Virus record (IMG/VR): IMGVR_UViG_3300042991_000497 | Coordinates: 1 to 58,854 of that record | Length of the DNA: 58,854 nt | Direction: 5' to 3' (one strand) | DNA from: a virus | Lineage: Duplodnaviria > Caudoviricetes | In this document: positions 1 to 49,256 of the stretch, one piece after another | Layout: each line of letters starts with the position of its first letter | How positions within the stretch are numbered: position 1 is the first letter of the stretch | Program-made: the position numbers and the translations under genes | Notes under the pieces: generated by a model | What the model saw: the letters and a program-made list of their open reading frames with translations, nothing else | What the model was told of the DNA's origin: nothing | Databases searched by the model: none

Positions 1-850
1 CGACGCAACGGACGCCGCAACGGCCAACGCAACGGCTGCCGCAACGCGCGCCGCAACGGACGGCGCAACGCGCGCCGCAACGATCGACGCAACGCGCGCC
101 GCAACGGCCGACGCAACGGACGACGCAACGTTCGGCGCAACGATCGACGCAACGCACGCCGCAACGCGCGCCGCAACGGTCGCAGCAACGCGCGCCGCAA
201 CGATCGCCGCAACGGACGCCGCAACGTTCAACGCAACGTACGGCGCAGCGCTCAACGCAACGGCTGCCGCAACGGACGCAGCAACGCGCGCCGCAACGGA
301 CGGCGCAACGTACGGCGCAGCGCTCAACGCAACGGCTGCCGCAACGCACGCCGCAACGCGCGACGCAACGCACGCCGCAACGCGCGCCGCGACACACGTC
401 GCAACGATCGCCGCAACGACCGACGCAACGGCCGACGCAACGATCGCCGCAACGACCGACGCAACGGCCGACGCAACGATCGCCGCAACGCGCGTCGCAA
501 CGTTCGGCGCAACGGCCGCGGCAACGCACGCCGCAACGCGCGCCGCAACGGACGCCGCAACGGACGACGCAACGGACGCCGCAACGATCGCCGCAACGAT
601 CGCCGCAACGCGCGCCGCAACGATCGCCGCAACGTACGCCGCAACGGACGCCGCAACGCGCGCCGCAACGCGCGCCGCAACGGTCGGTGCAACGGACGAC
701 GCAACGCGCGCCGCAACGGACGACGCAACGGACGCCGCAACGGACGACGCAACGGACGACGCAACGGACGGCGCAACGGCCGCGGCAACGGACGCCGCAA
801 CGCGCGCAGCAACGCGCGCCGCAACGGACGCCGCAACGGACGCCGCAACG
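1..850 (+). repeat. 12-bp imperfect tandem repeat NNC-NNC-GCA-ACG (about 70 units)
   Basis: gcaacg recurs every 12 nt, with two variable codons between copies. Confidence 0.95.
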
Positions 851-1543
851 GCACAGCAACTTGGTCTCATGTTCGGGGTTGACCCTGCTTTTATGTTGGG
901 TTGCAGCAGAGAATGGCAGCGCATGCACCAAGGAGGAAACATGTGGGTGCCTTGGGCTTGCTATCTGTCAGCGTATCGCGATGTGCTTGGGCTAGACCTG
1001 CCAGCGCACAAAAAATACAGGGCGTGGGAAGCATGCGCGGTAGAGGGTGGTTTCCGGGTCATGCACCCGGAGTTCTGCATCGTCAGCGATCGGCCGGAAC
1101 TACTCAAGGTTGATGACCAGAACCGGCCGCACTGCGAGACGGGACCATCGCATCGTTGGCGCGATGGTTGGAGTCTCTACCATTGGCACGGCGTGAGCAT
1201 CCCCGGCGAATGGGTGACCGGCCGCCCACCATCAGCCGCGGAAGCCTTGACTTGGGAGAACGTCGAGCAGCGCCGTGTCGCGTGTGAGATTGTTGGTTGG
1301 GCGAAGGTGCTCGACCAGCTCAAAGCGAAGACCATCGACGAAGATGGCGACCCGGAAATCGGATCTTTGCTTGAGGTTCATCTCCCGGATGCCGGCAGGG
1401 AACGATTCTTGAAGGTTCGCTGCGGGACCGGCCGCACGTTCGCATTGCCTGTCCCCAACACCGTGAAAACAGTAATCGAAGCCCAAGCGTGGACGTGGGG
1501 CATCGAAGTGAAAGATTTTCAACGTCCCGAAATCCGCACCTAA
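2..1543 (+). CDS. DUF6745-like protein, 3' part: about 70 x-x-A-T tetrapeptide repeats, then the conserved C-terminal domain (5' part at window end)
   Basis: The frame starting at base 2 reads DATDAATANATAAATRAAT... with no stop and is in frame with ORF 869..1543. The C-terminus (CIVSDRP..DDQNRPHCETGP..WRDGWSLYHWHGV..NVEQRRVACEIVGW..LKVRCGTGRTF) is typical of DUF6745. Confidence 0.8.
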   Translation, partial: DATDAATANATAAATRAATDGATRAATIDATRAATADATDDATFGATIDATHAATRAATVAATRAATIAATDAATFNATYGAALNATAAATDAATRAATDGATYGAALNATAAATHAATRDATHAATRAATHVATIAATTDATADATIAATTDATADATIAATRVATFGATAAATHAATRAATDAATDDATDAATIAATIAATRAATIAATYAATDAATRAATRAATVGATDDATRAATDDATDAATDDATDDATDGATAAATDAATRAATRAATDAATDAATAQQLGLMFGVDPAFMLGCSREWQRMHQGGNMWVPWACYLSAYRDVLGLDLPAHKKYRAWEACAVEGGFRVMHPEFCIVSDRPELLKVDDQNRPHCETGPSHRWRDGWSLYHWHGVSIPGEWVTGRPPSAAEALTWENVEQRRVACEIVGWAKVLDQLKAKTIDEDGDPEIGSLLEVHLPDAGRERFLKVRCGTGRTFALPVPNTVKTVIEAQAWTWGIEVKDFQRPEIRT

Positions 1544-1913: not shown

Positions 1914-1953
1914 TCCACACCGATTCCCAACCCGCCAATCCGAAAGGCACAAC

Positions 1954-2553
1954 ATGGCTCTTCTTCCTAACCAAATCATTCTCAAAAACGTTCGCAGCGC
2001 GTTCCTCGTCCTGGAAGACCCGCAGGACTATTTGGACAACAAGCAGTTCCGTTGGTCGGCGACTGCCCTGATCCCCTACAACTCCCCGATGGTGAAAGAG
2101 GTTGAAGCAAAAATGCTCGCCGTCGCCGAGTTGAAGTGGGGCAAGAAAGGAAAGGCAGTCCACGACGCGGTGATCCTCGACAAGCAGACCACCTGCTTCC
2201 TGGACGGCAAACGCAAACCCGAGTACGACGGCTACGAAGGCCACTGGGCGCTCACGGCGCACCGGCCGCAGAAGTCGGGGCGCCCCATGGTCATCGACAC
2301 GGACACCCAACCGATCTACGACGGCAAAGGCATGTTCATGGAGGGCAAAGCCGGCCGCATCTACAGCGGTTCGTTCATCAATCTGAAGGTCGGCTTTTGG
2401 TGCCAGGACAACGCCAACGGCAAGGCCATTCGCGCCGAACTGCTGACAGTGCAATCTCTGTTCCGGGGCGACGCATTCGGTGGCGGCGCCAAGCCGACCA
2501 CTGATGAGTTTGAAGTCGTGGCCGACGGCGCGGACGACGGCGACTTGGGTTGA
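1954..2553 (+). CDS. ssDNA-binding protein (DUF2815 / T7 gp2.5-like)
   Basis: IILKNVRSAF, FLDG, IYSGS, GKAIRAEL..VQ..GDAFGG and an acidic tail; SD gaaagg precedes ATG 1954. Confidence 0.85.
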   Translation: MALLPNQIILKNVRSAFLVLEDPQDYLDNKQFRWSATALIPYNSPMVKEVEAKMLAVAELKWGKKGKAVHDAVILDKQTTCFLDGKRKPEYDGYEGHWALTAHRPQKSGRPMVIDTDTQPIYDGKGMFMEGKAGRIYSGSFINLKVGFWCQDNANGKAIRAELLTVQSLFRGDAFGGGAKPTTDEFEVVADGADDGDLG

Positions 2554-2556
2554 GCG

Positions 2557-2583
2557 AAGCCTCACCTTCGGGTGGGGCTTTTT
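2557..2583 (+). terminator. Rho-independent terminator after the SSB gene
   Basis: aagcctcacc-TTCG-ggtggggctt followed by a T run. Confidence 0.8.
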
Positions 2584-2586
2584 GGA

Positions 2587-2689
2587 GGGGCTTGCTGGCC
2601 CGGCGGCCGGGGGAAGTCCGAGACACGCTAACGCGTGGAGTAGGCGTCCAAAATGCCCCGACTGAGTTCGACTCTCAGGGGCCCCTCCA
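2587..2689 (+). ncRNA. tRNA-like structured RNA (acceptor stem, D arm, T arm, CCA; no canonical anticodon arm)
   Basis: GGGGCTT/GGGCCCC stem plus TCCA; CTGGCC-CGGC-GGCCGG hairpin; perfect CTGAG-TTCGACT-CTCAG T arm. Confidence 0.55.
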
Positions 2690-2701
2690 AAGAGCAAACA
2701 C

Positions 2702-5050
2702 ATGCGCGACACATACCACGATCTGGAAACATTCAGCCGCGTCAACCTCAAGACGGCGGGCTCACACAAATACGCTCGCGACTGCGATGTGATGTTGTGG
2801 GCCTTCGCCGACGGCGACGGTGATATTTACGTGTGGGACCGCGTGTACGGCGATCTGTGGTCCCAGGACGGTCTGAGCGGTGTGTGGGCGCGACACACAA
2901 CACGCGGCACGCCGAGCGAAATGAGCGCGCTGCTCAACGACGATCAAGCGCTAGTTTGGTTCCACAATGGCGGTCAGTTTGACTTTCCGGTTCTAGACAC
3001 CCAGCTGCCGCACCTCGCGCCCCCGTTCGCGCGCCGCCGTGACACGATGGTGCAGGCTTTTGCGCACGCCCTGCCTGGGGCGCTAGAGAAGCTCGGGGAT
3101 ATTTTGGGCCTAGCCGAAGACAAAAAGAAACTCAAGGACGGTAAGGCGCTTGTGCGCTTGTTTTGCCTCCCGCAGAACGAAGCATTCCAGAAGCGATTCG
3201 GAACCGACCGCGCAACGCGCGACACGCACCCAGCTGAGTGGATGCGGTTCATCGAGTACGCAGGTGGCGATATCGCGACGATGCGTGCGGCACGCCGAGT
3301 ATTGCCGCGCTGGAACTACAGCACCGACAAGCAGGTCGGGCTGTGCTTGCTTGACTGGAAGATCAACGCGCGGGGGTTCCTGGTTGATGTAGCGCTGGCA
3401 CAAGGGGCCGTGGAGGGGTCTGGCAGGGCCAAGGCACTGCTGGCCGAGCAGAGTAGGGGGCTTACCGGCGATCAGGTGGGCGCGACGACCCAGCGCGATG
3501 TATTGCTGGCGTACATCCTGGCCGAACACAGCATCGAGCTACCAGACATGCGTGCCGACACGATCGAACGGCGGATCGACGATCCCGCACTGCCCGATGC
3601 CGTGCGCGAGCTGTTGAAGAACCGACTGCAGGCGTCCATGAACTCAGTATCGAAGTTCAAGACTCTGCTCAACATGGTGTGCGACGACGGCCGCATGCGA
3701 GGCTGCATGCAATTCCGTGGCGCCGGGCGCACTGGTCGGTGGGCCCACCGCGGCTTCCAACCTGGCAACCTGCCTCGTCCGACGCTGCCGCAGCGCTTGA
3801 TTGACTTGGCTATTCTGGCGCTCAAGAACGACGATGTGGAGCTGATCGACTTGGTGATGGGCAACGTCATGTCGGCCATCAGCAATACCATCCGCGGCGC
3901 GATCATCGCGCCTCCCAGGAAAAAGCTCGTCATCGCGGACTTGGCGAACATCGAGGGGCGCATGGCCGCCTGGTTGGCCGGGGAAGAGTGGAAGCTGCAA
4001 GCCTTTCGCGACTACGACACTATCACTGGCTACGACGCCAAGGGCAAGGCGGTCCGCAAAGGACTAGACCTCTACATCCTTGCCTACGCCAACTCGTTCA
4101 ACGTGCCACCCGAGTCGGTGCCGCCGAAAGGCAACGAGCGCCAGATCGGCAAGGTCGAGGAGTTGATGTTTCAGTACGGTGGCGGTGTCGGTGCGTGGAT
4201 CACAGGGGCCGCAACCTACGGCATTGACCTCGACGCGATGGCCGAAGCGGTGCACGGCACCGTACCGCAATGGGCCCTCGACGAAGCCGAAAAGTTCTTG
4301 GGGTGGATGCACGATCAGGTCGATGAGAAGTACGGAAAACGAGTCGCCGCACTTGCCAAGAAACACCCGGCCGACGTTCCGCAAGCCGAGCACGATGCAC
4401 TCTTGCAGCGGTGGCAAGAAGAGCGGCTCGCCAAGCGCTTCGGCTTGACCGAAAAGGTCTTCATCACGTGCGACGCGATCAAGCGCCTGTGGCGCAAGGC
4501 CCACCCTGAAATCTCGTCGTACTGGAAAGAGCTTGAATCTGCGGTGCGCTTCACCATCGAGAACCCTGGGGTTACCGTTGACTGCCGCAAGCTGAAGGTG
4601 CGCCGCAAGGGTGGATGGCTACGCATCGGGTTGCCATCTGGCCGCGCGCTGTGTTACCCGGAGCCCAGGATCGAGCCTGACAAGATCCCAAGCGCGCAGA
4701 ACCCGAGCACGATGGTGAAGAACCCACACGCCGGCAAGATCTCGTTCGTTGGGCTTAACCAATACACCCGCCAATGGGGCCGGGTCTTCACCTACGGCGG
4801 GAAACTATTCGAGAACGTTGTCCAGGCTGCGTCATGCGATCAGTTCGCCGAGCCGATGCCGAGCATCGAAGCCGCCGGATTCGAGTTGATATTGGGCATA
4901 CACGACGAGCACATCGCGGAGGCCGATGCCTCCCGCGACGATCTGAACGCCAAACTACTCGGCGATCTGATGTGCATGGACCTCAGCTGGAATGTTGGTT
5001 TGCCGCTCTCAGCGGCAGGGTTTGAAAGCGCACGTTACAGAAAGGAGTGA
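2702..5050 (+). CDS. Phage DNA polymerase, family A, with 3'-5' exonuclease
   Basis: Exo I DLETFS; GAGRTGRWA; QPGNLPR; motif A DLANIEGR; motif B RQIGKVEELMFQYGGG; TYGGKLFENVVQA; motif C IHDE. Confidence 0.95.
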   Translation: MRDTYHDLETFSRVNLKTAGSHKYARDCDVMLWAFADGDGDIYVWDRVYGDLWSQDGLSGVWARHTTRGTPSEMSALLNDDQALVWFHNGGQFDFPVLDTQLPHLAPPFARRRDTMVQAFAHALPGALEKLGDILGLAEDKKKLKDGKALVRLFCLPQNEAFQKRFGTDRATRDTHPAEWMRFIEYAGGDIATMRAARRVLPRWNYSTDKQVGLCLLDWKINARGFLVDVALAQGAVEGSGRAKALLAEQSRGLTGDQVGATTQRDVLLAYILAEHSIELPDMRADTIERRIDDPALPDAVRELLKNRLQASMNSVSKFKTLLNMVCDDGRMRGCMQFRGAGRTGRWAHRGFQPGNLPRPTLPQRLIDLAILALKNDDVELIDLVMGNVMSAISNTIRGAIIAPPRKKLVIADLANIEGRMAAWLAGEEWKLQAFRDYDTITGYDAKGKAVRKGLDLYILAYANSFNVPPESVPPKGNERQIGKVEELMFQYGGGVGAWITGAATYGIDLDAMAEAVHGTVPQWALDEAEKFLGWMHDQVDEKYGKRVAALAKKHPADVPQAEHDALLQRWQEERLAKRFGLTEKVFITCDAIKRLWRKAHPEISSYWKELESAVRFTIENPGVTVDCRKLKVRRKGGWLRIGLPSGRALCYPEPRIEPDKIPSAQNPSTMVKNPHAGKISFVGLNQYTRQWGRVFTYGGKLFENVVQAASCDQFAEPMPSIEAAGFELILGIHDEHIAEADASRDDLNAKLLGDLMCMDLSWNVGLPLSAAGFESARYRKE

Positions 5051-6112: not shown

Positions 6113-7647
6113 GAGATTTCAACCCACACCCCTACCAGTCCCTGATGATCGCCTTCGCAATCAAGGTACTGCGCTGCGCCATGTGGGCGGGTATGGGGAT
6201 GGGCAAGACGAGTTCCGTGCTGGCGGTGATTGACGCTCTACTTCTAGCGGGCTCGGTGAACAAGGTGATCGTGTTCGCGCCATTGCGGGTGGCCCGCGAC
6301 ACCTGGCCTGCGGAAGCACTGAAGTGGCGACAGTTCGCCGCGATGCGCATCAAGTTCATCGGCGAGTGGCTACCGGCCGAGCGTGAATTCCTCCGAGCAA
6401 GAACGCAATTCTTGAAGTTGGCTTTGCGTGACCCGAAGCACAAGGAGCAAACAACCAAAGACGCCAAGGCGCTAGCGCTCAAGTTGCGCCCCCTGGCCGC
6501 CGCCGCGCGCTTGGAGTGGTTGCGTGACGTAGACGTGATGTGCGCGAACTACGATGTAATCCAGCAGCTGGTCGCGATCCTCGACGATGGCAAGTGGCCG
6601 TTCGATATGGTGGTAGCTGACGAAGCAACGCGGCTCAAGAGTCTGCGCACGAGGCAAGGCGGCAAGCGCGCGCAAGCACTGATGAAAATTGCCTTTGACA
6701 AAGTGACCCGGTGGATCAATCTCACCGGCACACCGTCGCCCAACGGCCTCGTCGACCTGTACGGGCAGACCTGGTTTCTTGATCGAGGCCATCGGCTTGG
6801 CAGTTCGTTCGACGCGTTTCAGAACCGGTGGTTCGGTTTCAAGCGAGCGGCCGACGCCATCGGCTACAAGCCCGGTGTCGAGCGCGTTGTATTTCCGCAC
6901 GCTCAGGCGGAAATACAAAATCTGCTGCGCGACTGTTGTCTCACAATGGACCCAAAGGACTGGTTCAACCTCGATGAACCGATAGTAAATACTATTTACA
7001 TCGACCTACCACCGAGCGCGCAGCGCCACTACAAGGAGATGGCCAAGGTGATGTTCACGGAGATCCAAGGCAACGCCATCGAGGCGTTCGCTGCCGCGGC
7101 CAAAACCATGAAGTTGATTCAGCTCTGCAACGGCGCGGCATACATCGACGGCGGCAACGTGGCGTGGACCGTGGTACACGACGAGAAGCTCGACGCGCTG
7201 GAGTCAATCGTCGAGGAAGCTGCGGGCATACCGGTGCTCACTGCATACCACTTCAAGTCGGACCTCGCACGGCTCAAGAAGCGCTTTCCGAGTGGGCTCG
7301 ACTTGGCCACAAAGGATGGCATGAAACGCGCCATGGCCGGCGAAGGTAGGGTGTGGTTCGGCCACCCGGCAGGCATGGGCCACGGCGTCGACGGTCTGCA
7401 ATACCACTCGAACATCATCGCGTTCTTCGGCCACAACTGGAACCTCGAAGAACGCTTGCAGATCATCGAACGCATCGGCCCGATGCGCCAGAAACAAGCG
7501 GGCAAAGAGCGCCCGGTCTTCATCTACAACATCGTCGCTCGCGGCACAGTCGATGCGCTGGTTCTGAAGCGCGTCGAGACAAAGCGCTCGGTGCAGGACA
7601 TTTTGCTGGAAGCCATGAAACACCAGAACGAGTTGGGGCACACATGA
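6109..7647 (+). CDS. SNF2-family helicase
   Basis: MGMGKT, APLRVA..TW, VADEAT, LTGTPSPNG..DLYGQ, GHGVDGLQ, ERIG..RQ; GTGA start overlaps the VRR-NUC stop. Confidence 0.9.
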   Translation: MRDFNPHPYQSLMIAFAIKVLRCAMWAGMGMGKTSSVLAVIDALLLAGSVNKVIVFAPLRVARDTWPAEALKWRQFAAMRIKFIGEWLPAEREFLRARTQFLKLALRDPKHKEQTTKDAKALALKLRPLAAAARLEWLRDVDVMCANYDVIQQLVAILDDGKWPFDMVVADEATRLKSLRTRQGGKRAQALMKIAFDKVTRWINLTGTPSPNGLVDLYGQTWFLDRGHRLGSSFDAFQNRWFGFKRAADAIGYKPGVERVVFPHAQAEIQNLLRDCCLTMDPKDWFNLDEPIVNTIYIDLPPSAQRHYKEMAKVMFTEIQGNAIEAFAAAAKTMKLIQLCNGAAYIDGGNVAWTVVHDEKLDALESIVEEAAGIPVLTAYHFKSDLARLKKRFPSGLDLATKDGMKRAMAGEGRVWFGHPAGMGHGVDGLQYHSNIIAFFGHNWNLEERLQIIERIGPMRQKQAGKERPVFIYNIVARGTVDALVLKRVETKRSVQDILLEAMKHQNELGHT

Positions 7648-7988
7648 GCCCTGAAGACGTGAAACGCGCAGACCAACTTCTTCAGCAACACACTGAGAGA
7701 CAACACATGAATTGCGACTACCCACAGATTATCAGGGCCCTCAGCAGGCAGGAGGGCGGTGCGCACTACAAGAACCGCGCCATTCAGCCCATCGAATACA
7801 TCCACGCAAATGACCTACCTTTCATTGAGGGCTCGGTAGTGAAGTACATCACCCGGTGGCGCGACAAAGGGGGCGTCGAGGACCTCAAGAAAATCAAGCA
7901 CTACATCGACCTGTTGATTGAGCTGGAGGCATGCAAAACCGCGCGCGTTGACGCCTCTGTGCAACACGAGATACACTCCAAGACATGA
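7644..7988 (+). CDS. DUF3310 (SaV / T7 gp1.7-like) protein
   Basis: QEGGAHYK..IQPIEYI..F..G.VVKYITRWRDKGGVEDLKK..YIDLLIE; ATGA overlap. Confidence 0.85.
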   Translation: MSPEDVKRADQLLQQHTERQHMNCDYPQIIRALSRQEGGAHYKNRAIQPIEYIHANDLPFIEGSVVKYITRWRDKGGVEDLKKIKHYIDLLIELEACKTARVDASVQHEIHSKT

Positions 7989-9100
7989 GCAAGTGCAGCG
8001 TCGAGATCCGGGCCAACTCCATCCGCTTGCGGTTCACTCTTGACGGGGTGCCACAACGACCAACGTTGCGCGACGACGAGACAGGTAGACCACTCACGCC
8101 CGATGCAGGCAACGTCAAGTACGCCACCCGCCTGGCCGCCGAGATAGAACGCAAGATGGCGGCTGGCGTGCTCAACATCAGCGAATACTTCCCTGAAATG
8201 TCGAGCGAGACCACGCTGGCCGAACATCTTGATGTGTGGTTCGCCACTGCCCAACGGCTCGCCCCATCGACGCTCAAGTCCTATTGCAGCGCGATCAATT
8301 TTTGGAAGTCTGAGTTGGGCGATCAGGCGCTGCGCGGGCTCACGGTCACCGGCATTCGCACCGCACTCGCGTCGAGAGCCGGGCTCAACGGCAAGACGGT
8401 CAACAACTACGTCTCGGTGCTGAATACAGCGCTGGCACTGGCGCTGGAAGAAGGCCTCGTTGACGCCAACAAAGCGGCCGAGATTGGCTACGAGAAGTGG
8501 CAGCGCAAGCCCCCCGACCCGTTCAGCAAAGTTGAGGTCGAGGCCATCGTCAACTATGCGCGTGAGCACTGGCCGGGGCCGATCCACAGCATGGTTGAAG
8601 CGTGGTTCTTCACGGGGCTGCGCACCGGGGAGGTCTTCGGGATGCGCTGGATCAGTGTCGATCTTGTGAGCGGCTATGCCGAAGTTTCTGAATCAACGGT
8701 GCTTGGTGAGCACCAAGAGTCTACAAAGACAGGCATCACGCGAAACGTCATGCTCAATAGCCGCGCACTGGCCGCTTTCAAACGCCAGTCGGACCACCGC
8801 AGCGGCGTTGAGTTTGTGTGGTTCGACCCACGCAGCGGCGCCCCCTGGGTGGATGAACGCGCTTTCCGCCGCATCTACTGGGAGCCGATGCTGGATGCCT
8901 TGGGCATCCGCTACCGCCGCCCGTACTGCATGCGGCACACCTACGCCACGATGATGCTCATGGCGGGCCGCACACCGGCCTGGTGTGCCAAGCAGCTTGG
9001 GCATTCGATTGAGATGTTCCTGGGCACCTACTCGAAATGGCTTGAAGGCGACCAGGACGCGCGCGAGGTCGCAGGGCTTGAAAGGTGGTTGGCGGCATGA
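7985..9100 (+). CDS. int: Tyrosine recombinase / integrase with N-terminal arm-binding domain
   Basis: TGLRTGE, TKT, YCMRHTYAT, QLGHS..M....Y.KW; N-terminal SIRLRF. Confidence 0.9.
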   Translation: MSKCSVEIRANSIRLRFTLDGVPQRPTLRDDETGRPLTPDAGNVKYATRLAAEIERKMAAGVLNISEYFPEMSSETTLAEHLDVWFATAQRLAPSTLKSYCSAINFWKSELGDQALRGLTVTGIRTALASRAGLNGKTVNNYVSVLNTALALALEEGLVDANKAAEIGYEKWQRKPPDPFSKVEVEAIVNYAREHWPGPIHSMVEAWFFTGLRTGEVFGMRWISVDLVSGYAEVSESTVLGEHQESTKTGITRNVMLNSRALAAFKRQSDHRSGVEFVWFDPRSGAPWVDERAFRRIYWEPMLDALGIRYRRPYCMRHTYATMMLMAGRTPAWCAKQLGHSIEMFLGTYSKWLEGDQDAREVAGLERWLAA

Positions 9101-34638: not shown

Positions 34639-36719
34639 GGCGCCCCACCCCAGTTCGTCGCGGTGCTACCGTTCTGTTGGATCGGGTCCGCGATCACGTG
34701 CGTGATGTTCGCGTCCGCCTTGCCGGCGACCGTGAACGTCAAGCTGTCGGTTTTGGCCTTGATCGCGTTGGCGGTGCCGTTAACTGTTGACAGGTTGGCC
34801 GCCGACGCAAGCGCGGTCAGGCCCGCGCCGGCGGTGCCAATTTCTGCTGTGTCCGCCAAAATGGCGGTCACGTCGCCCTGCGCGGTAGCAAGTGCGGCGG
34901 CCGTGGCCAAGCCCGTTTGGATCTCGGTGGTGAAGTCAGCCGCCGTAGCTGCGGCGGTGAGCACGTTCGCGGCCATCGCGCCGACTGAGGCATCCATCCG
35001 CCCGCTGACGAGCGCCGCCGGCAGCCGGGCCTGAATGTCGTTGGTGTCCGATTGGACCGCCGACACTTGCGCGTCGAGGTTCGTCCCGATGATGTACCCG
35101 GCCTGCCCCGCAACGTAGGCGCCCGGCAGCGTCGTGATCCAAGGATCGCCTGCTGCGCCAGCGGCATTGAGCGCGGCTCCTGTGGACCCTGCCGTCAAGT
35201 GCCCAGCGAGTGCCTCGTCCCACACCTTATCCGCGATCTGCGAAAGCGGGTGCACATGGCTGACCCGTACGGTGATTCGGTCCCCTGACGCGGGGATCGT
35301 GACAAAGGCCTCATCGAATGCCGCTGTCCGCGTCGCCCCCGTGTACGAAAGGATCGGTCGCACTTGGCCCGCCCCGGTGCCCGACGCGATGTACAGCAGT
35401 TGATCGTTGTAGAAATTGTCAATCGTCGCCCCAGCCGTGAGCTGGATCGTCGTGCTTGTCGGCGTGCCGGTCGCTACCGTGTCGATGATGACCGCGCCAC
35501 CGGATTGAAGCTCAAAGCCTGCGGTTCCCGCCGTGCTGTGCCCCGAGGTCACCTCGTCCCACACGGCATCAGCAATTTCCGCGCCGAAGTCGGCCGCCGT
35601 AGCTGCAGCGGTGAGCACATTGGATGCCATGGCCCCGACAGAGGCGTCCATCCGCCCTCCAACGAGTGCCGCCGGCAAGCGGGCCTGAATGTCGTTGGTG
35701 TCTGCCAGGATGGTGGTCACATCGCTCTGCACAGTCGCAAGCGCTGCGGCCGTGGCCAAGCCCGTTTGGATCTCGGTGGTGAAGTCAGCTGCCGTAGCCG
35801 CCGCGGTGAGCACGTTCGCCGCCATGGCGCCGACAGTCACAGAAGCTGTGACGCTGGCTACCGATCCAACCACGTTCCCGCCAACGTTGCCGGTGACGCT
35901 GCCGACGGCGCCAGTAACGCTGCCGACGGCGCCAGTAACGCTGCCGACGGCGCCGGTGACGCTGCCGACGGCGCCGGTGACGCTTGCGACGACCTGATCG
36001 GCATCAATGTTCGTGCCCGACAGGTTGACCGCGGTGGTCGGCGCCCCGATGTTCGCCCAGTCCAATCCCGCCTCACCCGTCAGGCTCACATCGAGCGTTC
36101 GGCCCGCCACGGTAGGAACGAGTGGCAGCGCCACAGTGGTGAGATTGTTCCACGTCGAAACGTTCACGTTCGGCACGCCGGCGACGGGTGGAGTGGCCAC
36201 CGCAGTGTTGAGCCAGCGCGCCACGTTGATGTCGACCTGGCCGTTTGCGCTCTGATTGAGTTGGCCCGCGCCAGAACCGCGGGTGTACAGACCGCCAGCG
36301 GCCTCGGCGGCTGCGTTTGGCAGCGCTGTGAGCCCCGAACGCACAGTGTCTTGTTGGTCAACCGCTTTCAATTCAAACTCGATGACACACGACTCCATGT
36401 TCGTCGCCCCTTTGAGCATCACGACAGCACTGTTCACGCCGGTGGCGAATACGGCATCTGGCACGTCTAGCCGGTAAATGCCGGGCATGTTCGTGGCGTC
36501 AACCTCTACAAACCCTCCGCTCGAAAACGCACCAGTCGTGGTTTGCGTCGCCAGGGTGATCGCTACTCGGGCCGCGGCCGGTCGCACATAGCTCGCGACA
36601 AGACTGGCACTATTGAACGCCAACCCGGTCAAGCCGGCGCCCGTGGTGGCGCTGCTGTCCCGGATGAACACATAGACGATCTGGCTCGTCGCGCCTTTGG
36701 TGACCGCTTGTTTGCTCAC
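34635..36719 (-). CDS. Ala/Thr/Gly-rich repetitive virion (fibre or decoration-like) protein
   Basis: VTGAVGS heptad repeats, duplicated DTNDIQARLPAALV.GRMDASVGAMA blocks, IADAVWDE motifs. Confidence 0.6.
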   Translation of the reverse strand: MSKQAVTKGATSQIVYVFIRDSSATTGAGLTGLAFNSASLVASYVRPAAARVAITLATQTTTGAFSSGGFVEVDATNMPGIYRLDVPDAVFATGVNSAVVMLKGATNMESCVIEFELKAVDQQDTVRSGLTALPNAAAEAAGGLYTRGSGAGQLNQSANGQVDINVARWLNTAVATPPVAGVPNVNVSTWNNLTTVALPLVPTVAGRTLDVSLTGEAGLDWANIGAPTTAVNLSGTNIDADQVVASVTGAVGSVTGAVGSVTGAVGSVTGAVGSVTGNVGGNVVGSVASVTASVTVGAMAANVLTAAATAADFTTEIQTGLATAAALATVQSDVTTILADTNDIQARLPAALVGGRMDASVGAMASNVLTAAATAADFGAEIADAVWDEVTSGHSTAGTAGFELQSGGAVIIDTVATGTPTSTTIQLTAGATIDNFYNDQLLYIASGTGAGQVRPILSYTGATRTAAFDEAFVTIPASGDRITVRVSHVHPLSQIADKVWDEALAGHLTAGSTGAALNAAGAAGDPWITTLPGAYVAGQAGYIIGTNLDAQVSAVQSDTNDIQARLPAALVSGRMDASVGAMAANVLTAAATAADFTTEIQTGLATAAALATAQGDVTAILADTAEIGTAGAGLTALASAANLSTVNGTANAIKAKTDSLTFTVAGKADANITHVIADPIQQNGSTATNWGGAP
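35890..35985 (-). repeat. 21-bp tandem repeat encoding (SVTGAVG)n
   Basis: acgctgccgacggcgccRgtR repeated 4-5 times. Confidence 0.85.
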
Positions 36720-44626: not shown

Positions 44627-44974
44627 GTGAAGCTCCCCACTCTCAAAATGCTCGTGAAAGCCTGCGCAGACCAGCGCGCCGGATTCAAGCGTCTCTTCGG
44701 CGAGTCCGTCGGGATCACCGAGGCCCTCTGCGTCGAGCACGCGCACTACAAAGCCACCGGGCCCGCCCGGGACGCACTTGACGAGGCCACCGCGCTGGTC
44801 TGGGCCGCGCACTACAAAGCCATCGCGCCGGCCCGGGACCCACTTGACGAGGCCTGCGCGACGGACCAAGTCGCTGCGTACCGCAGAGCCCTCGCTGCGG
44901 CTCAGGGCGCGTACCTCGAAGCCCACGCACGTGCGGTCGCTCAAGTCTTCGGCTCAACGGAGAACCAATCGTGA
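44627..44974 (+). CDS. 11-aa-repeat paralogue 1 (internally deleted)
   Basis: Shares N-cap and C-cap with the family but lacks QVFDWxxAAEHLLAPAAR. Confidence 0.8.
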   Translation: MKLPTLKMLVKACADQRAGFKRLFGESVGITEALCVEHAHYKATGPARDALDEATALVWAAHYKAIAPARDPLDEACATDQVAAYRRALAAAQGAYLEAHARAVAQVFGSTENQS

Positions 44975-45474
44975 AGCTCCTCACTCTCAAAATGCTCGTG
45001 AAAGCCGGCGCAGACCAGCGCGCCGAATTCGAGCGTCTCTTCGGCGAGTCCGTCGAAGTCACCGAGGCCCTCTGCGTCGAGCACGCGCAGGTCTTTGACT
45101 GGGCTTGGGCCGCCGAGCATCTGCTCGCCCCTGCGGCCCGGGACGCGTATGACGAGGCCATCGCGCCGGTCTGGGGCGCACTTGATGAGGCCACCGCGAC
45201 GGCCCGGATCGCATATGACGAGGCCATCGCGACGGCCTGGGCCGTGTATGGCGGGGCCATCGCACCGGCCCGGGACGCGTATCACGAAGCCACCGCGCCG
45301 ACCTGGGCCGCGTACCAAGCAGCCATCGCGCCGGCCCGGATCGCGCTCAACGAAGCCACCGCGACGGCCCGGGCCGCGCGCGACGAAGCCACCGCGACGG
45401 CCCAGGGCGCGTTCAGCGAAGCCCTCGCCCGCGCGTTCGCACAAGCCTTCAACTCAACGGAGAACCAATCGTGA
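44971..45474 (+). CDS. 11-aa-repeat paralogue 2 (8 repeats)
   Basis: 57 + 8x11 + 22 = 167 aa. Confidence 0.9.
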   Translation: MKLLTLKMLVKAGADQRAEFERLFGESVEVTEALCVEHAQVFDWAWAAEHLLAPAARDAYDEAIAPVWGALDEATATARIAYDEAIATAWAVYGGAIAPARDAYHEATAPTWAAYQAAIAPARIALNEATATARAARDEATATAQGAFSEALARAFAQAFNSTENQS

Positions 45475-46040
45475 AGCTCCTCCCTCTCATCGTGCTCACG
45501 AAAGCCCGCGCAGACCAGCGCGCCGGATTCAAGCGTCTCTTCGGCAAGTCCGTCGAAGTCACCGAAGCCATCTGCGTCGAGCACGCGCAGGTCTTCGACT
45601 GGGGTGGGGCCGCCGAGCACCTGCTCGCCCCTGCGGCCCGGGCCATGTATGACGAGGCCATCGCGCCGGCCTGGGGCGCACTTGATGAGGCCACCGCGAC
45701 GGCCCGGATCGCGTACCGCAAAGCCATCGCGCCGGCCCGGGCCGCGCTCAACAAAGCCACCGCGATGGCCTGGGCCACGTATCTCGAAGCCACCGCACCG
45801 GCCTGGGCCGCGCTCAACAAAGCCACCGCGCCGACCCGGGCCGCGTACCGCAAAGCCACCGCGCCGACCTGGGCCGCGTACCGCGCAGCCATCGCGCCGG
45901 CCCGGGCCGCGCTCAACGAAGCCACCGCGACGGCCCGGGCCGCGCTCAACAAAGCCACCGCGACGGCCCAGGGCGCGTTCAGCGAAGCCCTCGCCCGCGC
46001 GTTCGCACAAGCCTTCAACTCGACGGAGAACCAATTATGA
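45471..46040 (+). CDS. 11-aa-repeat paralogue 3 (10 repeats)
   Basis: 57 + 10x11 + 22 = 189 aa. Confidence 0.9.
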   Translation: MKLLPLIVLTKARADQRAGFKRLFGKSVEVTEAICVEHAQVFDWGGAAEHLLAPAARAMYDEAIAPAWGALDEATATARIAYRKAIAPARAALNKATAMAWATYLEATAPAWAALNKATAPTRAAYRKATAPTWAAYRAAIAPARAALNEATATARAALNKATATAQGAFSEALARAFAQAFNSTENQL

Positions 46041-46474
46041 AAACCCTCACTCTCAAAATGCTCGTGAAAGCCGGCGCGGGCCAGCGCGCCGAATTCAAGC
46101 GTCTCTTCGGTGAGTCCGTCGAGATCACCGAAGCCATCTGCGTCGAGCACGCGCAAGCTTTCTACTGGGGTGGGGCCGCCGAGCACCTGCTCGCCCCTGC
46201 GGCCCGGGCCACGTATCGCGGAGCCACCGCACCGGCCCGGGCCACGTATCGCGAAGCCACCGCACCGGCCTGGGCCACGTATCGCGAAGCCACCGCGACG
46301 GCCTGGGCCGTGTATGGCGATGCCATCGCGCCGGCCCGGGCCGCGTGTCTCGAAGCCACCGCGCCGGCCTGGGCCACGTATCTCGAAGCCACCGCGCCGG
46401 CCCGTGCTGCGTATAGCGAAGCCCTCGCCCGCGCGTTCGCGCAAGCCTTCAACTCGACGGAGAACCAATCATGA
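46037..46474 (+). CDS. 11-aa-repeat paralogue 4 (6 repeats)
   Basis: 57 + 6x11 + 22 = 145 aa. Confidence 0.9.
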   Translation: MKTLTLKMLVKAGAGQRAEFKRLFGESVEITEAICVEHAQAFYWGGAAEHLLAPAARATYRGATAPARATYREATAPAWATYREATATAWAVYGDAIAPARAACLEATAPAWATYLEATAPARAAYSEALARAFAQAFNSTENQS

Positions 46475-47079
46475 AAACCCTCACTCTCAAAATGCTCGTG
46501 AAAGCCGGCGCGGGCCAGTGCGCCGAATTCGAGCGTCTCTTCGGCAAGTCCGTCGAAGTCACCGAGGCCCTCTGCGTCGAGCACGCGCAAGCTTTCTACT
46601 GGGGTGGGGCCGCCGAACACCTGCTCACGCCTGCGGCCCGGGCCACGTATCGCGAAGCCATCGCGCCGGCCTGGGCCACGTATCGCGAAGCCACCGCGCC
46701 GGCCTGGGCCGCGTATCTCGCAGCCATCGCGCCGGCCCGGGCCGTGTATGACGAGGCCACCGCGACGGGCTGGGCCGCGTTCAACGAAGCCATCGCGCCG
46801 GCCCGGGCCGCGCTCAACGAAGCCACCGCGACGGCCCGGGCTGCGTTCAACAAAGCCACCGCGACGGCCCGGGCTGCGTTCAACAAAGCCATCGCGCCGG
46901 CCCGGGCCGCGCTCAACGAAGCCATCGCGCAGGCCTGGGCCGCGTATGACGAGGCCATCGCGCCGGCCCGGGCCGCATTTGACGAGGCCCAAGCCCGCGC
47001 GTTCGCTCGCGCTTACGCCCTAACCCCTAACCCCAAACGTAAAGGAACCGACACCACCATGAAAGCCGTGATTAGCTGA
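46471..47079 (+). CDS. 11-aa-repeat paralogue 5 (10 repeats, altered tail)
   Basis: 57 + 10x11 + 35 = 202 aa. Confidence 0.9.
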   Translation: MKTLTLKMLVKAGAGQCAEFERLFGKSVEVTEALCVEHAQAFYWGGAAEHLLTPAARATYREAIAPAWATYREATAPAWAAYLAAIAPARAVYDEATATGWAAFNEAIAPARAALNEATATARAAFNKATATARAAFNKAIAPARAALNEAIAQAWAAYDEAIAPARAAFDEAQARAFARAYALTPNPKRKGTDTTMKAVIS

Positions 47080-47198
47080 CCCCACAGCCGCGCGAGAGAC
47101 CTTGACGGGGGCGCGCCATTGCCGTCGCAGCGGGCGCCCTTGACGATTCTGACTTGATCGAAGCCTGACCCTCTAACCTCAACCGTAAAGGCCACAAA

Positions 47199-47588
47199 AT
47201 GAACTTCCCCTCAATCAACATCGGCGACGAGCTGACCTGCGCCGAAACAGGAAAGCAATTCATCGCCGCACCGCAAGGCTGCACATTCAACTACGCGCGC
47301 ACACTCGCGGGCGAAATACTCAGTGATGATGGCGCGAGCATTCGCGAGAAACGCGCCCTTCTCGACCGCGCTTCGCCTTTTTACTGCTATGTATCCGGCG
47401 ACGCCCTGCACGTCACGGATTGGAAAGGCAACACGCTGGGGCGGGTATCTGAATACCGCGAGAGTCGAAATGGGTTTCACCGCTCGACGATCGCCAGGTT
47501 CCGTGTACGCGACGTGCACGGGCAACTGTGGTCTGGCCGCGGTCCGGGCCGCAGTATGTGTTGTGTTTTGCGTGCCATGAAGGGGTAA
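47199..47588 (+). CDS. Hypothetical protein inserted in the array
   Basis: SD aaagg; non-repetitive 129 aa; ends RAMKG. Confidence 0.75.
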   Translation: MNFPSINIGDELTCAETGKQFIAAPQGCTFNYARTLAGEILSDDGASIREKRALLDRASPFYCYVSGDALHVTDWKGNTLGRVSEYRESRNGFHRSTIARFRVRDVHGQLWSGRGPGRSMCCVLRAMKG

Positions 47589-47594
47589 CCAATC

Positions 47595-48089
47595 ATGAAA
47601 ACCCTCACTCTCAAAATGCTCGTGAAAGCGGAAGCCCGCGCGGGCCAGCGCCGCGCATTTGTCCGCCTTTTCGGCGAGTCCGTCGATGTCACCGAGGCCC
47701 TCTGCGTCGAGCACGCACGGGTTTTTGACTGGGACGGGGCCGCCGAGCATCTGCTCGCCCCTGCGGCCCGGGCCGCGTACAACGCAGCCACCGCGAGGGC
47801 CTGGGCCGCGCTCAAAAAAGCCACCGCGCCGGCCCGGGCCGCGTATGGCGAGGCCACCGCGCCGGCCTGGGCCGTGTACAGCGCAGCCACCGCGAGGGCC
47901 CGGATCGCGCATGACGAGGCCACCGCGACGGTCCGGGCCGCACTTGACGAGGCCATCGCGCTGGCCTGGGCCGCGCTCACCGAAGCCATCGCGACGGCCC
48001 GGGCCGCGTACCGCGCAGCCATCGCGCCGGCCCGGGCCGCGTACCTCGAAGCCCAAGCCCGCACGTTCGCACAAGCATTCAACCTCTAA
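47595..48089 (+). CDS. 11-aa-repeat paralogue 6 (8 repeats)
   Basis: 59 + 8x11 + 17 = 164 aa. Confidence 0.9.
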   Translation: MKTLTLKMLVKAEARAGQRRAFVRLFGESVDVTEALCVEHARVFDWDGAAEHLLAPAARAAYNAATARAWAALKKATAPARAAYGEATAPAWAVYSAATARARIAHDEATATVRAALDEAIALAWAALTEAIATARAAYRAAIAPARAAYLEAQARTFAQAFNL

Positions 48090-48146
48090 CCTCTAACCTC
48101 TAACCTCTAACCTCTAACCTCTAACCTCTAACCTCTAACCTCTAAC
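48081..48146. repeat. Perfect heptamer repeat (TAACCTC)x8 plus partial copies
   Basis: Full copies from 48087 to 48142. Confidence 0.95.
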
Positions 48147-48165
48147 GCTCCCTAACACCCACGCC

Positions 48166-48636
48166 ATGAGCACCCCCACCATGAACACCCCCACCATGAA
48201 CACCCCCACCATGAACACCCCGAAGACAGAAACGGAACAATTCGAGCACCACGCAGCACGCGCGTTTTTCGCGAGCGCCTGGGCCGACGCGTGCGAAGAA
48301 GCCGGGAGCGGGGATATCCTTTCGGGGCAAAAAATAATGAACATCATGCCTGTCACTATCGACCCCGCGGCTACCCATGCCGCCCGCATTCTGCGAATGG
48401 ATATCGAGCGCGTCAATGGCCAGACCATCCCTCAGTTGTTGGCTTTCGTGGCGTCGGCTGCCGCAGGCGACCGCGCACCGACGGCCGAATTCTTTGGCCA
48501 CTACGCCGCGATGCGAGCAATGGGGCATGGTGTCGGTCTGCGAGACGCATTCGGTGCCGAAGTCGACGCGGCTATCTCTGTGCCCTCCGTCGAGTTCGGT
48601 TCGCACTCACTGCAGCGCGACTACTTCGTTCTCTAA
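48166..48636 (+). CDS. Hypothetical protein with (MNTPT)n N-terminus
   Basis: 156-aa ORF; FGHY.AM.AMGHGVG motif. Confidence 0.75.
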   Translation: MSTPTMNTPTMNTPTMNTPKTETEQFEHHAARAFFASAWADACEEAGSGDILSGQKIMNIMPVTIDPAATHAARILRMDIERVNGQTIPQLLAFVASAAAGDRAPTAEFFGHYAAMRAMGHGVGLRDAFGAEVDAAISVPSVEFGSHSLQRDYFVL

Positions 48637-48662
48637 CCCCTAACCTCAAACATCAACCCGCT

Positions 48663-48809
48663 ATGTCCTACCATCAATTTGCCGCCGCTTACTTCCACGC
48701 CGGCCGTGCCTGGGCTATCGCCTGTGCAATCGAGTTCGGTGTACCCCTCTTCACCACACTGTGCTACGTGCGCAAAATATGCGCGACCGAGCGTGCCATG
48801 AAGGGGTAA
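48663..48809 (+). CDS. Small hypothetical protein (48 aa)
   Basis: MSYHQFAAAY..RAMKG*, the 3' part of ORF 48291..48809. Confidence 0.5.
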   Translation: MSYHQFAAAYFHAGRAWAIACAIEFGVPLFTTLCYVRKICATERAMKG

Positions 48810-48815
48810 CCAATC

Positions 48816-49256
48816 ATGAAAATCACCCACCCAATGCTCGTGAAAGCGAAAGCCTGCGCGGGCCCGCGCGCCGAATTCAAGCGTCTCTTCGGCAAGTCCG
48901 TCGAAGTCACCGAGGCCCTCTGCGTCGAGCACGTGCAAGTTTTTGACTGGGGTGGGGCCGCCGAGCACCTGCTCGCCCCTGCGGCCCGGGCCGCGTATGA
49001 CGAGGCCACCGCGACGGCCTGGGCCACGTACAACGCAGCCATCGCGCCGGCCCGGGCCGCGTACAACGCAGCCACCGCGACGGCCCGTGCTGCGCTCAAC
49101 AAAGCCACCGCGATGGCCTGGGCCGCGTATCTCAAAGCCACCGCACCGGCCTGGGCCACGTATCTCGAAGCCACCGCACCGGCCTGGGCCACGTATCGCG
49201 AAGCCCGCGCACGTGCGTTCGCCCAAGCCTTCAACTCGACGGAGAACCAATCATGA
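48816..49256 (+). CDS. 11-aa-repeat paralogue 7 (6 repeats)
   Basis: 58 + 6x11 + 22 = 146 aa. Confidence 0.9.
   Translation: MKITHPMLVKAKACAGPRAEFKRLFGKSVEVTEALCVEHVQVFDWGGAAEHLLAPAARAAYDEATATAWATYNAAIAPARAAYNAATATARAALNKATAMAWAAYLKATAPAWATYLEATAPAWATYREARARAFAQAFNSTENQS

What the first reader, a model, noticed from the sequence alone, without database searches (positions are those of the whole stretch)
2581..2691. tRNA-mimic RNA with no normal anticodon arm, between a terminator and the polymerase start
Seen: a 7-bp acceptor-like stem (2587-2593 / 2679-2685) with U-CCA, a perfect 5-bp/7-nt T arm (TTCGACT), and a 6-bp D-like stem with a 4-nt CGGC loop. The 51-nt centre holds two hairpins (CACGC-TAAC-GCGTG; GGCGT-CCAAA-ATGCC) and no 7-nt anticodon loop. 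The flank TTTGGA extends the terminal stem and would mask the CCA. Known: a 6-bp D stem with a 4-nt loop and a UUCGACU T loop are tRNA-Sec traits. Inference: a decoy for anticodon nucleases, an RNase P processing signal for the polymerase mRNA, or an attP related to a host tRNA 3' end.
Basis: partly seen in the sequence, partly recalled or inferred. Interest (0 to 1): 0.7.

Follow-up and report, generated by a model that had tools for sequence, protein, structure and literature searches.

The report
tRNA-shaped cap on intercistronic phage stem
Between the DNA-binding-protein gene and the DNA polymerase gene of this phage lies a long RNA stem, shared with related phages, that here carries a tRNA-shaped top with no anticodon loop; it most likely controls how the two messages are cut and translated and is not a working tRNA.

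Summary
The terminal stem is longer than reported: 17 pairs, 2577-2593/2679-2695. A T arm next to a 7-bp acceptor stem plus CCA occurred once in the window and in 0 of 300 shuffles.

It is not an ordinary tRNA. ARAGORN found 0 genes. Rfam gave no tRNA, tRNA-Sec or tmRNA match even at E<=10.

The new result is context. In related phages (polA 29-71% identical), a terminator-like hairpin is followed by a 15-25 bp stem. That stem uses the hairpin's U-tract and a downstream CAAAG. It ends -3 to +25 nt before the next start codon in 32 of 33 cases. Stem sequences differ but stay paired, with G·U favoured over A·C (29 vs 9), which points to RNA. The apical part varies from 4 to 171 nt. It is tRNA-like only in the window, L039 (Rfam tRNA, 45.6 bits), L144 and partly L013.

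Best reading: a cis-acting intercistronic processing and translation-control stem, probably cut by RNase III, capped by a tRNA-derived domain. A trans-acting mimic is not excluded. attP and anticodon-nuclease decoy are unsupported. No RNA data exist.

The parts
1948..2553 (+). Upstream gene: gp2.5/Enc34-type single-stranded-DNA-binding protein (201 aa from the internal ATG)
   Evidence: Pfam PF10991 Enc34_ssDNA-bd, E 6.5e-25, 88 bits; ORF list.
2558..2583 (+). Terminator-like hairpin hp1: 9 pairs 2558-2566/2571-2579, loop TTCG, then a T-run 2579-2583
   Evidence: Sequence. Partial Rfam matches of this hairpin to the terminal hairpins of sRNA models, all far below gathering. Identical 28-nt hairpin in many phage records, one annotated 'terminator'. 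Not listed by the simple terminator scan.
2577..2593 (+). 5' strand of the 17-bp terminal stem. 2577-2586 is the extension, which uses the T-run; 2587-2593 is the acceptor-like 5' strand.
   Evidence: The same architecture occurs in 32 other elements from relatives.
2595..2610 (+). D-like arm: 6-bp stem, loop CGGC
   Evidence: MFE and centroid.
2624..2637 (+). Central hairpin A: 5 bp, loop TAAC
2643..2657 (+). Central hairpin B: 5 bp, loop CCAAA. It stands where an anticodon or variable arm would be, 4 nt before the T arm.
2662..2678 (+). T arm: 5 bp, loop TTCGACT, directly abutting the 3' acceptor strand
2679..2695 (+). 3' strand of the terminal stem. 2679-2685 is the acceptor-like 3' strand; U2686 and CCA 2687-2689 follow; AAGAGC 2690-2695 pairs with the T-run and the foot of hp1. 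It contains the only Shine-Dalgarno-like purines ahead of polA.
2702..5050 (+). Downstream gene: family-A DNA polymerase. Its ATG lies 6 nt after the last paired base.
   Evidence: BLASTP against BPP-1 Bbp42: 48% identity, 373/782, E 0. Pfam DNA_pol_A only 24 bits, below its cut-off of 34.3. for the distance.

Best explanation
The element is a transcribed, cis-acting intercistronic RNA structure of the phage replication operon. The tRNA shape belongs only to its apical cap.

Proposed mechanism:
- Transcripts that stop at the weak terminator-like hairpin hp1 end in a protective hairpin and encode SSB only.
- Transcripts that read through make the downstream strand (…CCAAAGAGC). This strand pairs back onto the U-tract and the foot of hp1.
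- The result is a 17-bp duplex. In the window it stacks on the 5-bp T stem, giving about two helical turns.
- The duplex abuts or covers the ribosome-binding region of the next gene.
- I infer that a double-strand-specific nuclease (RNase III) cuts this duplex. The cut would uncouple the SSB and polymerase messages, leave hp1 as the 3' end of the SSB message, and free the polymerase start site.

The window's cap is a tRNA-derived cloverleaf that has lost its anticodon loop. After the first cut it could be trimmed by RNase P and 3' exonucleases to an RNA of about 103 nt ending in CCA. Whether that by-product has a function of its own is open.

Shown: the structure, its conservation with compensatory change, its strand bias, and its fixed position relative to hp1 and the next start codon.
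Inferred: transcription, cleavage and the enzymes involved.
For: 1. Same architecture in relatives. 33 elements (31 distinct stems) follow hp1 and use its U-tract. Stems are 15-25 pairs: 590 Watson-Crick, 34 G·U, 4 A·C, 13 other.

2. Covariation. Stem positions +1 to +10 each show at least four different standard pair types and are 94-100% paired.

3. A count that does not depend on how the elements were picked. In 124 unique regions after an SSB stop codon, the best stem within 330 nt has >=16 pairs in 36, against 7 of 124 control windows. For >=18 pairs the counts are 22 against 2.

4. Strand bias under a criterion that treats G·U and A·C alike. 29 G·U against 9 A·C in 31 stems; control coding windows gave 13 against 30. 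This favours RNA of the sense strand.

5. Position. The next ORF starts -3 to +25 nt after the last pair in 32 of 33. In L007 and L026 the ATG lies inside the stem. In the window the only purine-rich stretch before the ATG is paired.

6. Stability. Folds of 14 members have z from -3.2 to -7.3.

7. The apical part is not conserved: 4 to 171 nt, with simple hairpins in L011, L014, L057, L106, L148, L160 and L174.

8. Phylogeny. On a polA tree the window falls in a clade with support 0.999 in which 11 of 14 leaves carry the element. The tRNA-scoring L039 is on the sister branch.

9. The phage has no RNA polymerase gene among the ORFs scanned, so host transcription and host RNases apply.

10. Precedents, recalled and not from any call: lambda sib/tI, where only read-through transcripts complete an RNase III stem, and the T7 intercistronic RNase III sites.
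Against: - No RNA data of any kind. Transcription, read-through and cleavage are all inferred.
- hp1 has a short U-tract and fails the simple terminator rule, so it may not terminate at all.
- RNase III sites have no sequence signature I could test.
- A perfect 17-bp stem could equally act as a stabiliser, an insulator or a protein-binding site.
- The 33 elements were found by a filter that demands pairing, so the pair counts are partly circular. reduce this problem but do not remove it.
- About two thirds of the SSB-downstream regions lack such a stem, so it is not essential to the module.
- All five arms of the window's cap are intact. This is more than a decaying relic would be expected to keep, and it hints at selection on the cap itself.
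Confidence: 0.45

Rival explanations
1. A trans-acting tRNA mimic. The cloverleaf is released as a stable small RNA of about 103 nt with a CCA end. It acts on host factors that read the acceptor/T-arm or the elbow, for example as a decoy for tRNA-end-modifying or acceptor/T-loop-cutting defence toxins, or as a sponge for a tRNA-binding enzyme. The long stem is only its processing scaffold.
For: - The composite of T arm, acceptor stem and CCA is far from chance (0 of 300 shuffles).
- Every arm is intact, and the D-like loop has the GG needed for an elbow.
- Anticodon-less tRNA-like domains recur at this site in L039 and L144. Both keep canonical D and T loops but lack a 7-nt anticodon loop.
- L144 has A73 and a long extra arm, and ARAGORN labels it Leu-like.
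- RNase P is known to release tRNA-like RNAs from longer transcripts, such as mascRNA and the P1/P7 C4 precursor (PMC4919922, passages read).
Against: - Only 3-4 of the 33 elements counted (41 candidate members in all) are tRNA-like.
- The closest relative, L006 (71% polA identity), has an unrelated 36-nt cap.
- L123, sister of L039, has lost the 5' half.
- The three caps share no alignable sequence.
- CCA is not conserved in the family: UUCA, UGCA, CGCA and UGA occur at the same place.
- With no anticodon loop it cannot decoy anticodon nucleases.
- No RNA evidence.
Confidence: 0.2
2. A decaying tRNA gene or pseudogene with no function of its own. A phage tRNA gene once sat in this intergenic space, and its anticodon region has been scrambled. 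What is conserved is only a hairpin that happens to use the old acceptor stem.
For: - A bona fide tRNA-Tyr lies 10 nt after the stem in L053.
- L039 still scores as a tRNA.
- L123 shows outright decay of the 5' half.
- Caps range from tRNA-like to a 4-nt loop.
- The window's element fails ARAGORN and Rfam.
Against: - In the window all five helices are unbroken. The T arm is perfect and exactly abuts the acceptor strand.
- L039 and L123 differ by a compensatory C-G to U-A change in the T stem.
- This reading overlaps the best explanation. It differs only in denying any role for the cap.
Confidence: 0.2
3. A DNA-level site: a strand-specific single-stranded-DNA hairpin (a replication or priming signal inside the replication module) or a recombination site such as attP.
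For: - It lies between replication genes.
- The perfect long inverted repeat would also fold in single-stranded DNA, and G·T pairs are tolerated there.
- The phage is temperate: it has an integrase at 7985-9100.
Against: - The stem is welded to a terminator-like hairpin and its U-tract, in the sense orientation, and ends at the next ribosome-binding site in 32 of 33 cases. That is an mRNA logic.
- Another origin-like feature exists: perfect 9-nt iterons beside the primase/helicase gene.
- attP is unsupported. The integrase is 5.3 kb away. No tRNA gene matched the 3' part in the 401 genomes searched, nor in the 5 genomes that carry related prophages. The family member L174 lies unsplit in a complete chromosome.
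Confidence: 0.08

Closest known systems
Lambda sib/tI retroregulation site and the T7 intercistronic RNase III sites (recalled from the literature; no call)
   Same: A long duplex between cistrons of a phage operon. As in sib, the duplex is completed only when transcription passes a terminator hairpin, because its 3' strand lies downstream. An upstream hairpin is left as a 3' end.
   Different: Cleavage is not shown here. These stems are nearly perfect, unlike the T7 sites with their internal loops. The duplex is separate from hp1, not an extension of hp1 itself. Some members carry large multibranched or tRNA-like caps. There is no sequence similarity and no Rfam family.
tRNA-like RNase P substrates embedded in longer transcripts: P1/P7 C4 antisense RNA precursor, MALAT1/mascRNA, operon mRNAs (PMC4919922, passages and reference list read)
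   Same: An acceptor/T-stem stack with NCCA inside a longer transcript, placed where a cut would separate an upstream RNA from a downstream one.
   Different: Ten extra leader-trailer pairs bury the would-be RNase P site and the CCA. There was no match to the Rfam C4 model or to any other family. No target complementarity was found for the 13-nt single-stranded linker (2 matches at <=2 mismatches, 1.33 expected).
Canonical tRNA and bacterial tRNA-Sec
   Same: 7-bp acceptor stem, NCCA, 5-bp T stem with a TTCGACT loop, G53-C61, and GG in the D-like loop. The 6-bp D stem with a 4-nt loop resembles tRNA-Sec (that trait is recalled).
   Different: No 7-nt anticodon loop. One nucleotide, not two, between the acceptor and D stems. 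A 13-nt linker and an extra hairpin. Acceptor plus T stem is 12 pairs, not 13. ARAGORN found 0 genes. No RF00005 or RF01852 match at E<=10.
tRNA-like domains of tmRNA and of bacterial Y-RNA-like YrlA (recalled)
   Same: tRNA body without an anticodon arm. The window's 5' GGGGCU start resembles tmRNA.
   Different: - tmRNA: pair 3-70 is G-C, not G·U. The RNA is too short and has no tag frame. ARAGORN's tmRNA search found nothing, even relaxed.
- YrlA: there the RNA ends lie in the Ro-binding stem and the acceptor is closed, the opposite topology. No Ro/TROVE gene appeared among the 48 ORFs scanned.

Membership tests
tRNA (Rfam RF00005 / ARAGORN) | Scores as a tRNA with a covariance model or ARAGORN | tested here: not met
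   ARAGORN found 0 genes in the window. Rfam gave 0 at gathering and no tRNA row among the 6 matches at E<=10 on 2500-2760. Only ARAGORN with introns allowed and lowered thresholds forced a poor fit.
tRNA (Rfam RF00005 / ARAGORN) | Anticodon arm with a 7-nt loop | tested here: not met
   The central loops are 4 nt (TAAC) and 5 nt (CCAAA).
tRNA (Rfam RF00005 / ARAGORN) | Acceptor stem of 7 bp stacked on a 5-bp T stem with a T-loop, then NCCA | tested here: met
   2587-2593/2679-2685, 2662-2678, U2686 and CCA 2687-2689.
tRNA-Sec (RF01852) | 13 pairs in acceptor plus T stems (8/5 in bacteria), UCA anticodon, long variable arm (features recalled) | tested here: not met
   7+5 pairs and no UCA loop. 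No RF01852 match at E<=10. Only the 6-bp/4-nt D arm fits.
tmRNA | tRNA-Ala-like end with G3·U70, a tag reading frame, and detection by ARAGORN or Rfam | tested here: not met
   Pair 3-70 is G-C. ARAGORN's tmRNA search found none, including at a relaxed threshold. Rfam found none.
RNase III intercistronic processing stems (lambda sib, T7 R sites) | Duplex of roughly two helical turns between cistrons | tested here: met
   17 pairs plus the stacked 5-bp T stem in the window; 15-25 pairs in 33 elements.
RNase III intercistronic processing stems (lambda sib, T7 R sites) | Cleavage by RNase III in vivo or in vitro | not testable with these tools
   No RNA run holds the sequence.
RNase P non-tRNA substrates (C4 precursor, mascRNA type) | Acceptor/T minihelix with 3' NCCA and an accessible 5' leader; cleavage by RNase P | tested here: inconclusive
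   The minihelix and UCCA are present. The leader and the CCA are paired for 10 more bp. There was no match to the Rfam C4 model. Cleavage cannot be tested.
attP overlapping a host tRNA 3' end | Near-identity of a 3' tRNA segment with a host tRNA gene, next to the integrase gene, and split in the prophage state | tested here: not met
   8 of 401 genomes gave only 17-27-nt weak matches, and 0 of those 8 loci holds a tRNA. The integrase is at 7985-9100. Family member L174 is unsplit in a complete chromosome. The true host is unknown, so this is 'not found in those searched'.
New family proposed here: post-SSB terminator-coupled long stem | hp1 hairpin; then a stem whose 5' strand begins with the hp1 foot and U-tract (C-TTTG) and whose 3' strand ends CAAAG; next start codon within about 25 nt | tested here: met
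   Window 2558-2695 fits on every count. Only one such element occurs in the window.

The most novel reading that the evidence does not exclude
BPP-1-like phages carry an undescribed class of terminator-coupled RNA modules. In several lineages these modules release anticodon-less tRNA bodies: acceptor stem, T arm and elbow are intact, and the decoding arm is replaced. These RNAs would be made only from read-through transcripts of the replication operon. They would act in trans on tRNA-recognising host machinery. Examples: soaking up defence toxins that modify or cut the tRNA 3' end or T loop, or being charged without being decodable (L144 is Leu-like) to feed or block an aminoacyl-tRNA-dependent enzyme.
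Probability: 0.12. Interest if true: 0.8.

Novelty: new variant of a known kind. Interest (0 to 1): 0.5.

Why it matters
If the reading is right, this is a compact, conserved switch that sets the ratio of an abundant DNA-binding protein to a catalytic polymerase from a single operon. It would work on a logic known so far from lambda sib and the T7 processing sites, and it is absent from Rfam.

It also gives a natural series running from a true tRNA, through an anticodon-less tRNA body, to a bare hairpin, all at one genomic site. That series is useful for studying how tRNA genes are recruited into or lost from regulatory RNA.

It also flags candidate phage tRNA mimics that standard tRNA finders miss.

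One cultured phage, BPP-1, carries a family member (NC_005357 about 36134-36205). The hypothesis can therefore be tested directly.

Tried and rejected
- Misreading corrected: I first read the query-relative coordinates as window coordinates and thought the element matched inside polymerase genes. Searches showed those hits lie in polA (window about 3480-4250), not in the element.
- Sequence homologues of the element: none. The 181-nt region against cultured phages matched only the hp1 hairpin. A 22-nt exact pattern in viral contigs gave 0. Local BLAST against 82 loci gave only chance-level hits. The L039 and L144 elements have no match in cultured phages.
- Closer relatives: none above 71% polA identity in viral, metagenome or genome collections. 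Covariation inside the cap could therefore not be tested.
- SSB-based locus search: 2 loci, neither syntenic downstream.
- RNA evidence: no RNA holder listed. The only run is a DNA run that may be the source sample.
- Covariance model of the family: two MAFFT alignments (A3, A4) misplaced one arm in several rows because the caps differ in length. I did not build a model, and counted pairs in scripts instead.
- Hammerhead idea: prompted by GAUGAG in some stems, rejected because those bases are fully paired and no Rfam ribozyme matched.
- Antisense-target idea: the 13-nt linker has no better-than-chance complement in the window.
- attP next to the integrase: 7640-7990 is coding and matched 1 of 401 genomes weakly. 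This was uninformative.
- BcepC6B, vB_E332 and XapPhi1: no family member in the stretches fetched.
- Earlier findings of this scan: nothing on this genome, sequence or these words.
- Literature: three full-text searches listed nothing that describes this element. Listings only were seen, except for passages of PMC4919922.

Full report
**What is in the window**

The record is a whole 58,854-nt virus contig, 63% G+C. The finding lies between two genes:
- Upstream, a gp2.5/Enc34-type single-stranded-DNA-binding protein (1948-2553; Pfam PF10991, E 6.5e-25).
- Downstream, a family-A DNA polymerase (2702-5050; 48% identical over 782 residues to BPP-1 Bbp42).

Other genes include an SNF2 helicase, a tyrosine integrase (7985-9100), a primase/helicase (51658-53619, minus strand), an exonuclease and podovirus-type structural genes. 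No RNA polymerase and no tRNA-related enzyme appeared among the 48 ORFs scanned.

**The observation**

The minimum-energy fold reproduces them:
- Acceptor-like stem 2587-2593/2679-2685.
- U2686 and CCA 2687-2689.
- T arm 2662-2678 with loop TTCGACT.
- D-like arm 2595-2610 with loop CGGC.
- Two 5-bp hairpins with 4-nt and 5-nt loops.
- No 7-nt anticodon loop.

The terminal stem is longer than reported, at 17 contiguous pairs (2577-2593/2679-2695). Its 5' strand starts in the last two bases of the upstream hairpin (2558-2579, TTCG loop) and runs through that hairpin's T-run. Its 3' strand ends 6 nt before the polA ATG.

The 103-nt core is no more stable than shuffled sequence (z -0.14). The extended element is (z -3.50, 1 of 200 shuffles).

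A strict T-arm motif joined to a 7-bp acceptor partner and CCA occurs once in the window and in none of 300 shuffles. That motif was defined after the fact.

**It is not an ordinary tRNA**
- ARAGORN finds no tRNA or tmRNA in the window.
- Rfam finds nothing at gathering thresholds.
- At E<=10 on 2500-2760, Rfam gives six weak matches, none to tRNA, tRNA-Sec, tmRNA or C4. Five of the six overlap the upstream hairpin.
- Only ARAGORN with introns allowed and thresholds lowered forces a poor model.

**Relatives**

Searches with polA gave 80 viral, 80 metagenomic and 45 genomic loci. The nearest is 71% identical (L006, the same contig as L086). None has sequence similarity to the element.

Reading the DNA upstream of polA showed a shared architecture:
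- After the SSB stop comes a G+C-rich hairpin.
- Next comes a long stem. Its 5' strand begins with the foot of that hairpin and its T-run (C-TTTG…). Its 3' strand ends …CAAAG(A/C)G.
- Next comes a short A/C-rich leader and the next start codon.

A script scan collected 33 such elements, including BPP-1 itself (L001 514-585). They have 31 distinct stems of 15-25 pairs. Eight further candidates seen later (L019, L031, L053, L092, L145, L162, L176, L193) are not in those counts.

**Is the stem real and is it RNA?**
- The stems differ in sequence but remain paired. Positions +1 to +10 from the T-run each show at least four standard pair types at 94-100% pairing.
- Because those elements were selected for pairing, I made a count that is not. 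Among 124 unique regions following an SSB stop (155 of 206 loci had an SSB match), the best stem within 330 nt has >=16 pairs in 36 and >=18 pairs in 22. Control windows 900 nt further on gave 7 and 2.
- With G·U and A·C treated alike when stems are defined, 31 stems hold 29 G·U and 9 A·C. Control windows hold 13 and 30.
- That bias, the fixed sense orientation and the fusion to a U-tract all point to an RNA structure on the mRNA strand.
- All 14 members folded have the terminal stem in their MFE structure, with z from -3.2 to -7.3.
- The window holds one such element only.

**What is conserved and what is not**

The apical part ranges from a 4-nt loop to 171 nt. Seven members are plain hairpins. 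NCCA at the 3' side is common but not universal.

tRNA-like caps occur in four members:
- The window.
- L039. Rfam tRNA, 45.6 bits against a gathering score of 29, with 54 nt where the model expects 9 in the anticodon region.
- L144. ARAGORN at default calls a Leu-like tRNA with a 4-base 'anticodon', but the perfect 5-bp stem leaves a 5-nt loop.
- L013, partly. It has a T-loop with one stem mismatch.

A genuine tRNA-Tyr lies 10 nt after the stem in L053.

On a FastTree polA tree of 124 sequences, the window sits with L006, L007, L011, L092, L010 and L008/L009/L090. The pair L039+L123 is the sister branch (SH-like support 0.999). Of the 14 leaves in this clade, 11 carry the element.

L123 keeps only the T arm and the 3' strand. 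It differs from L039 by a compensatory C-G to U-A change in the T stem.

The simplest history is a tRNA gene or tRNA-like RNA at this site in the ancestor of that clade, eroded to different degrees while the extended stem was kept. Independent gains cannot be excluded. L144 lies in another clade.

**Position relative to translation**

In 32 of 33 elements the next ORF of at least 50 codons starts -3 to +25 nt after the last pair. In about half of the 33 that ORF is polA; in the rest it is a shorter ORF. In L007 and L026 the ATG is inside the stem. In the window the only purine-rich stretch ahead of the ATG is paired with the T-run.

**Mechanism proposed**

Transcripts ending at the hairpin encode SSB only and keep a 3' hairpin. 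Read-through transcripts complete the long duplex, which hides or abuts the next ribosome-binding site.

I infer cleavage by RNase III. This is by analogy with lambda sib/tI and the T7 intercistronic sites (recalled, not from a call). It would separate the messages and expose the polymerase start.

In the window the remaining cloverleaf, with short tails, could then be trimmed by RNase P and exonucleases. RNase P does release tRNA-like RNAs from longer transcripts and cuts the P1/P7 C4 precursor and operon mRNAs (PMC4919922, passages read).

No step after 'the structure exists and is conserved' is shown.

- Anticodon-nuclease decoy: unlikely without an anticodon loop.
- RNase P signal: possible only after the 10 extra pairs are removed.
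- attP: not supported. See, and L174. The host is unknown, and only 401 plus 5 genomes were searched.

**Limits**
- No RNA run holds the sequence.
- There are no close relatives, so the cap's arms could not be tested for covariation.
- My attempts to make an alignment fit for a covariance model failed.
- Three literature searches listed nothing describing this element. Subscription-only papers on BPP-1 were not searchable.

Noticed in passing
window 4-851 and 58741-58848: A 12-nt tandem repeat (about 71 copies at the left end, 9 at the right end). It evidently spans the record's ends, so the linear record is probably a circular or permuted genome broken inside the array. The left array is in frame with an ORF that ends in a DUF6745 domain (869-1543).
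   Followed up: partly
window 51455-51710: Direct and inverted copies of a 9-nt unit (CAGGGGTGA; 4.9 perfect tandem copies at 51663-51706, plus inverted copies near 51455). They flank an A+T-rich stretch at the 3' end of the primase/helicase gene. The arrangement looks like an iteron-type origin or operator.
   Followed up: no
window 44750-50850: Many arrays of a 33-nt repeat (11-residue period) spread over several ORFs on both strands. None of the ORFs has a PHROG match.
   Followed up: no
window 55053-55082 and 57049-57191: Short perfect repeats: (GGTTTG)x5, and a (CGAAGA)n array of about 23 copies.
   Followed up: no
window 2574-2580 and 2587-2593: The 7-mer that forms the acceptor-like 5' strand also occurs 13 nt upstream, as the 3' strand of the terminator-like hairpin. 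The 3' acceptor strand could therefore pair with either copy. This is why relaxed ARAGORN started its model at 2574.
   Followed up: partly
L017 2018-2109 and 2116-2228: Two family elements in tandem. The 3' strand of the first stem doubles as the 5' strand of the hairpin that precedes the second, which gives mutually exclusive pairings.
   Followed up: no
L053 1168-1260 and 1271-1356: A family-type stem followed 10 nt later by a standard tRNA-Tyr(GTA) gene. True tRNA genes do occupy this intergenic site in some relatives.
   Followed up: partly
L123 about 990-1030: A remnant of the L039-type tRNA-like element: the T arm and 3' strand are kept and the 5' half is lost. It carries one compensatory change in the T stem.
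   Followed up: partly
L051, L054, L056, L073, L085 about 843-919: Enterobacterial-type relatives lack the family stem. About 250 nt after the SSB gene they have a different 16-17-bp stem that ends in GCCA-CC and encloses about 43 nt. It was not examined.
   Followed up: no
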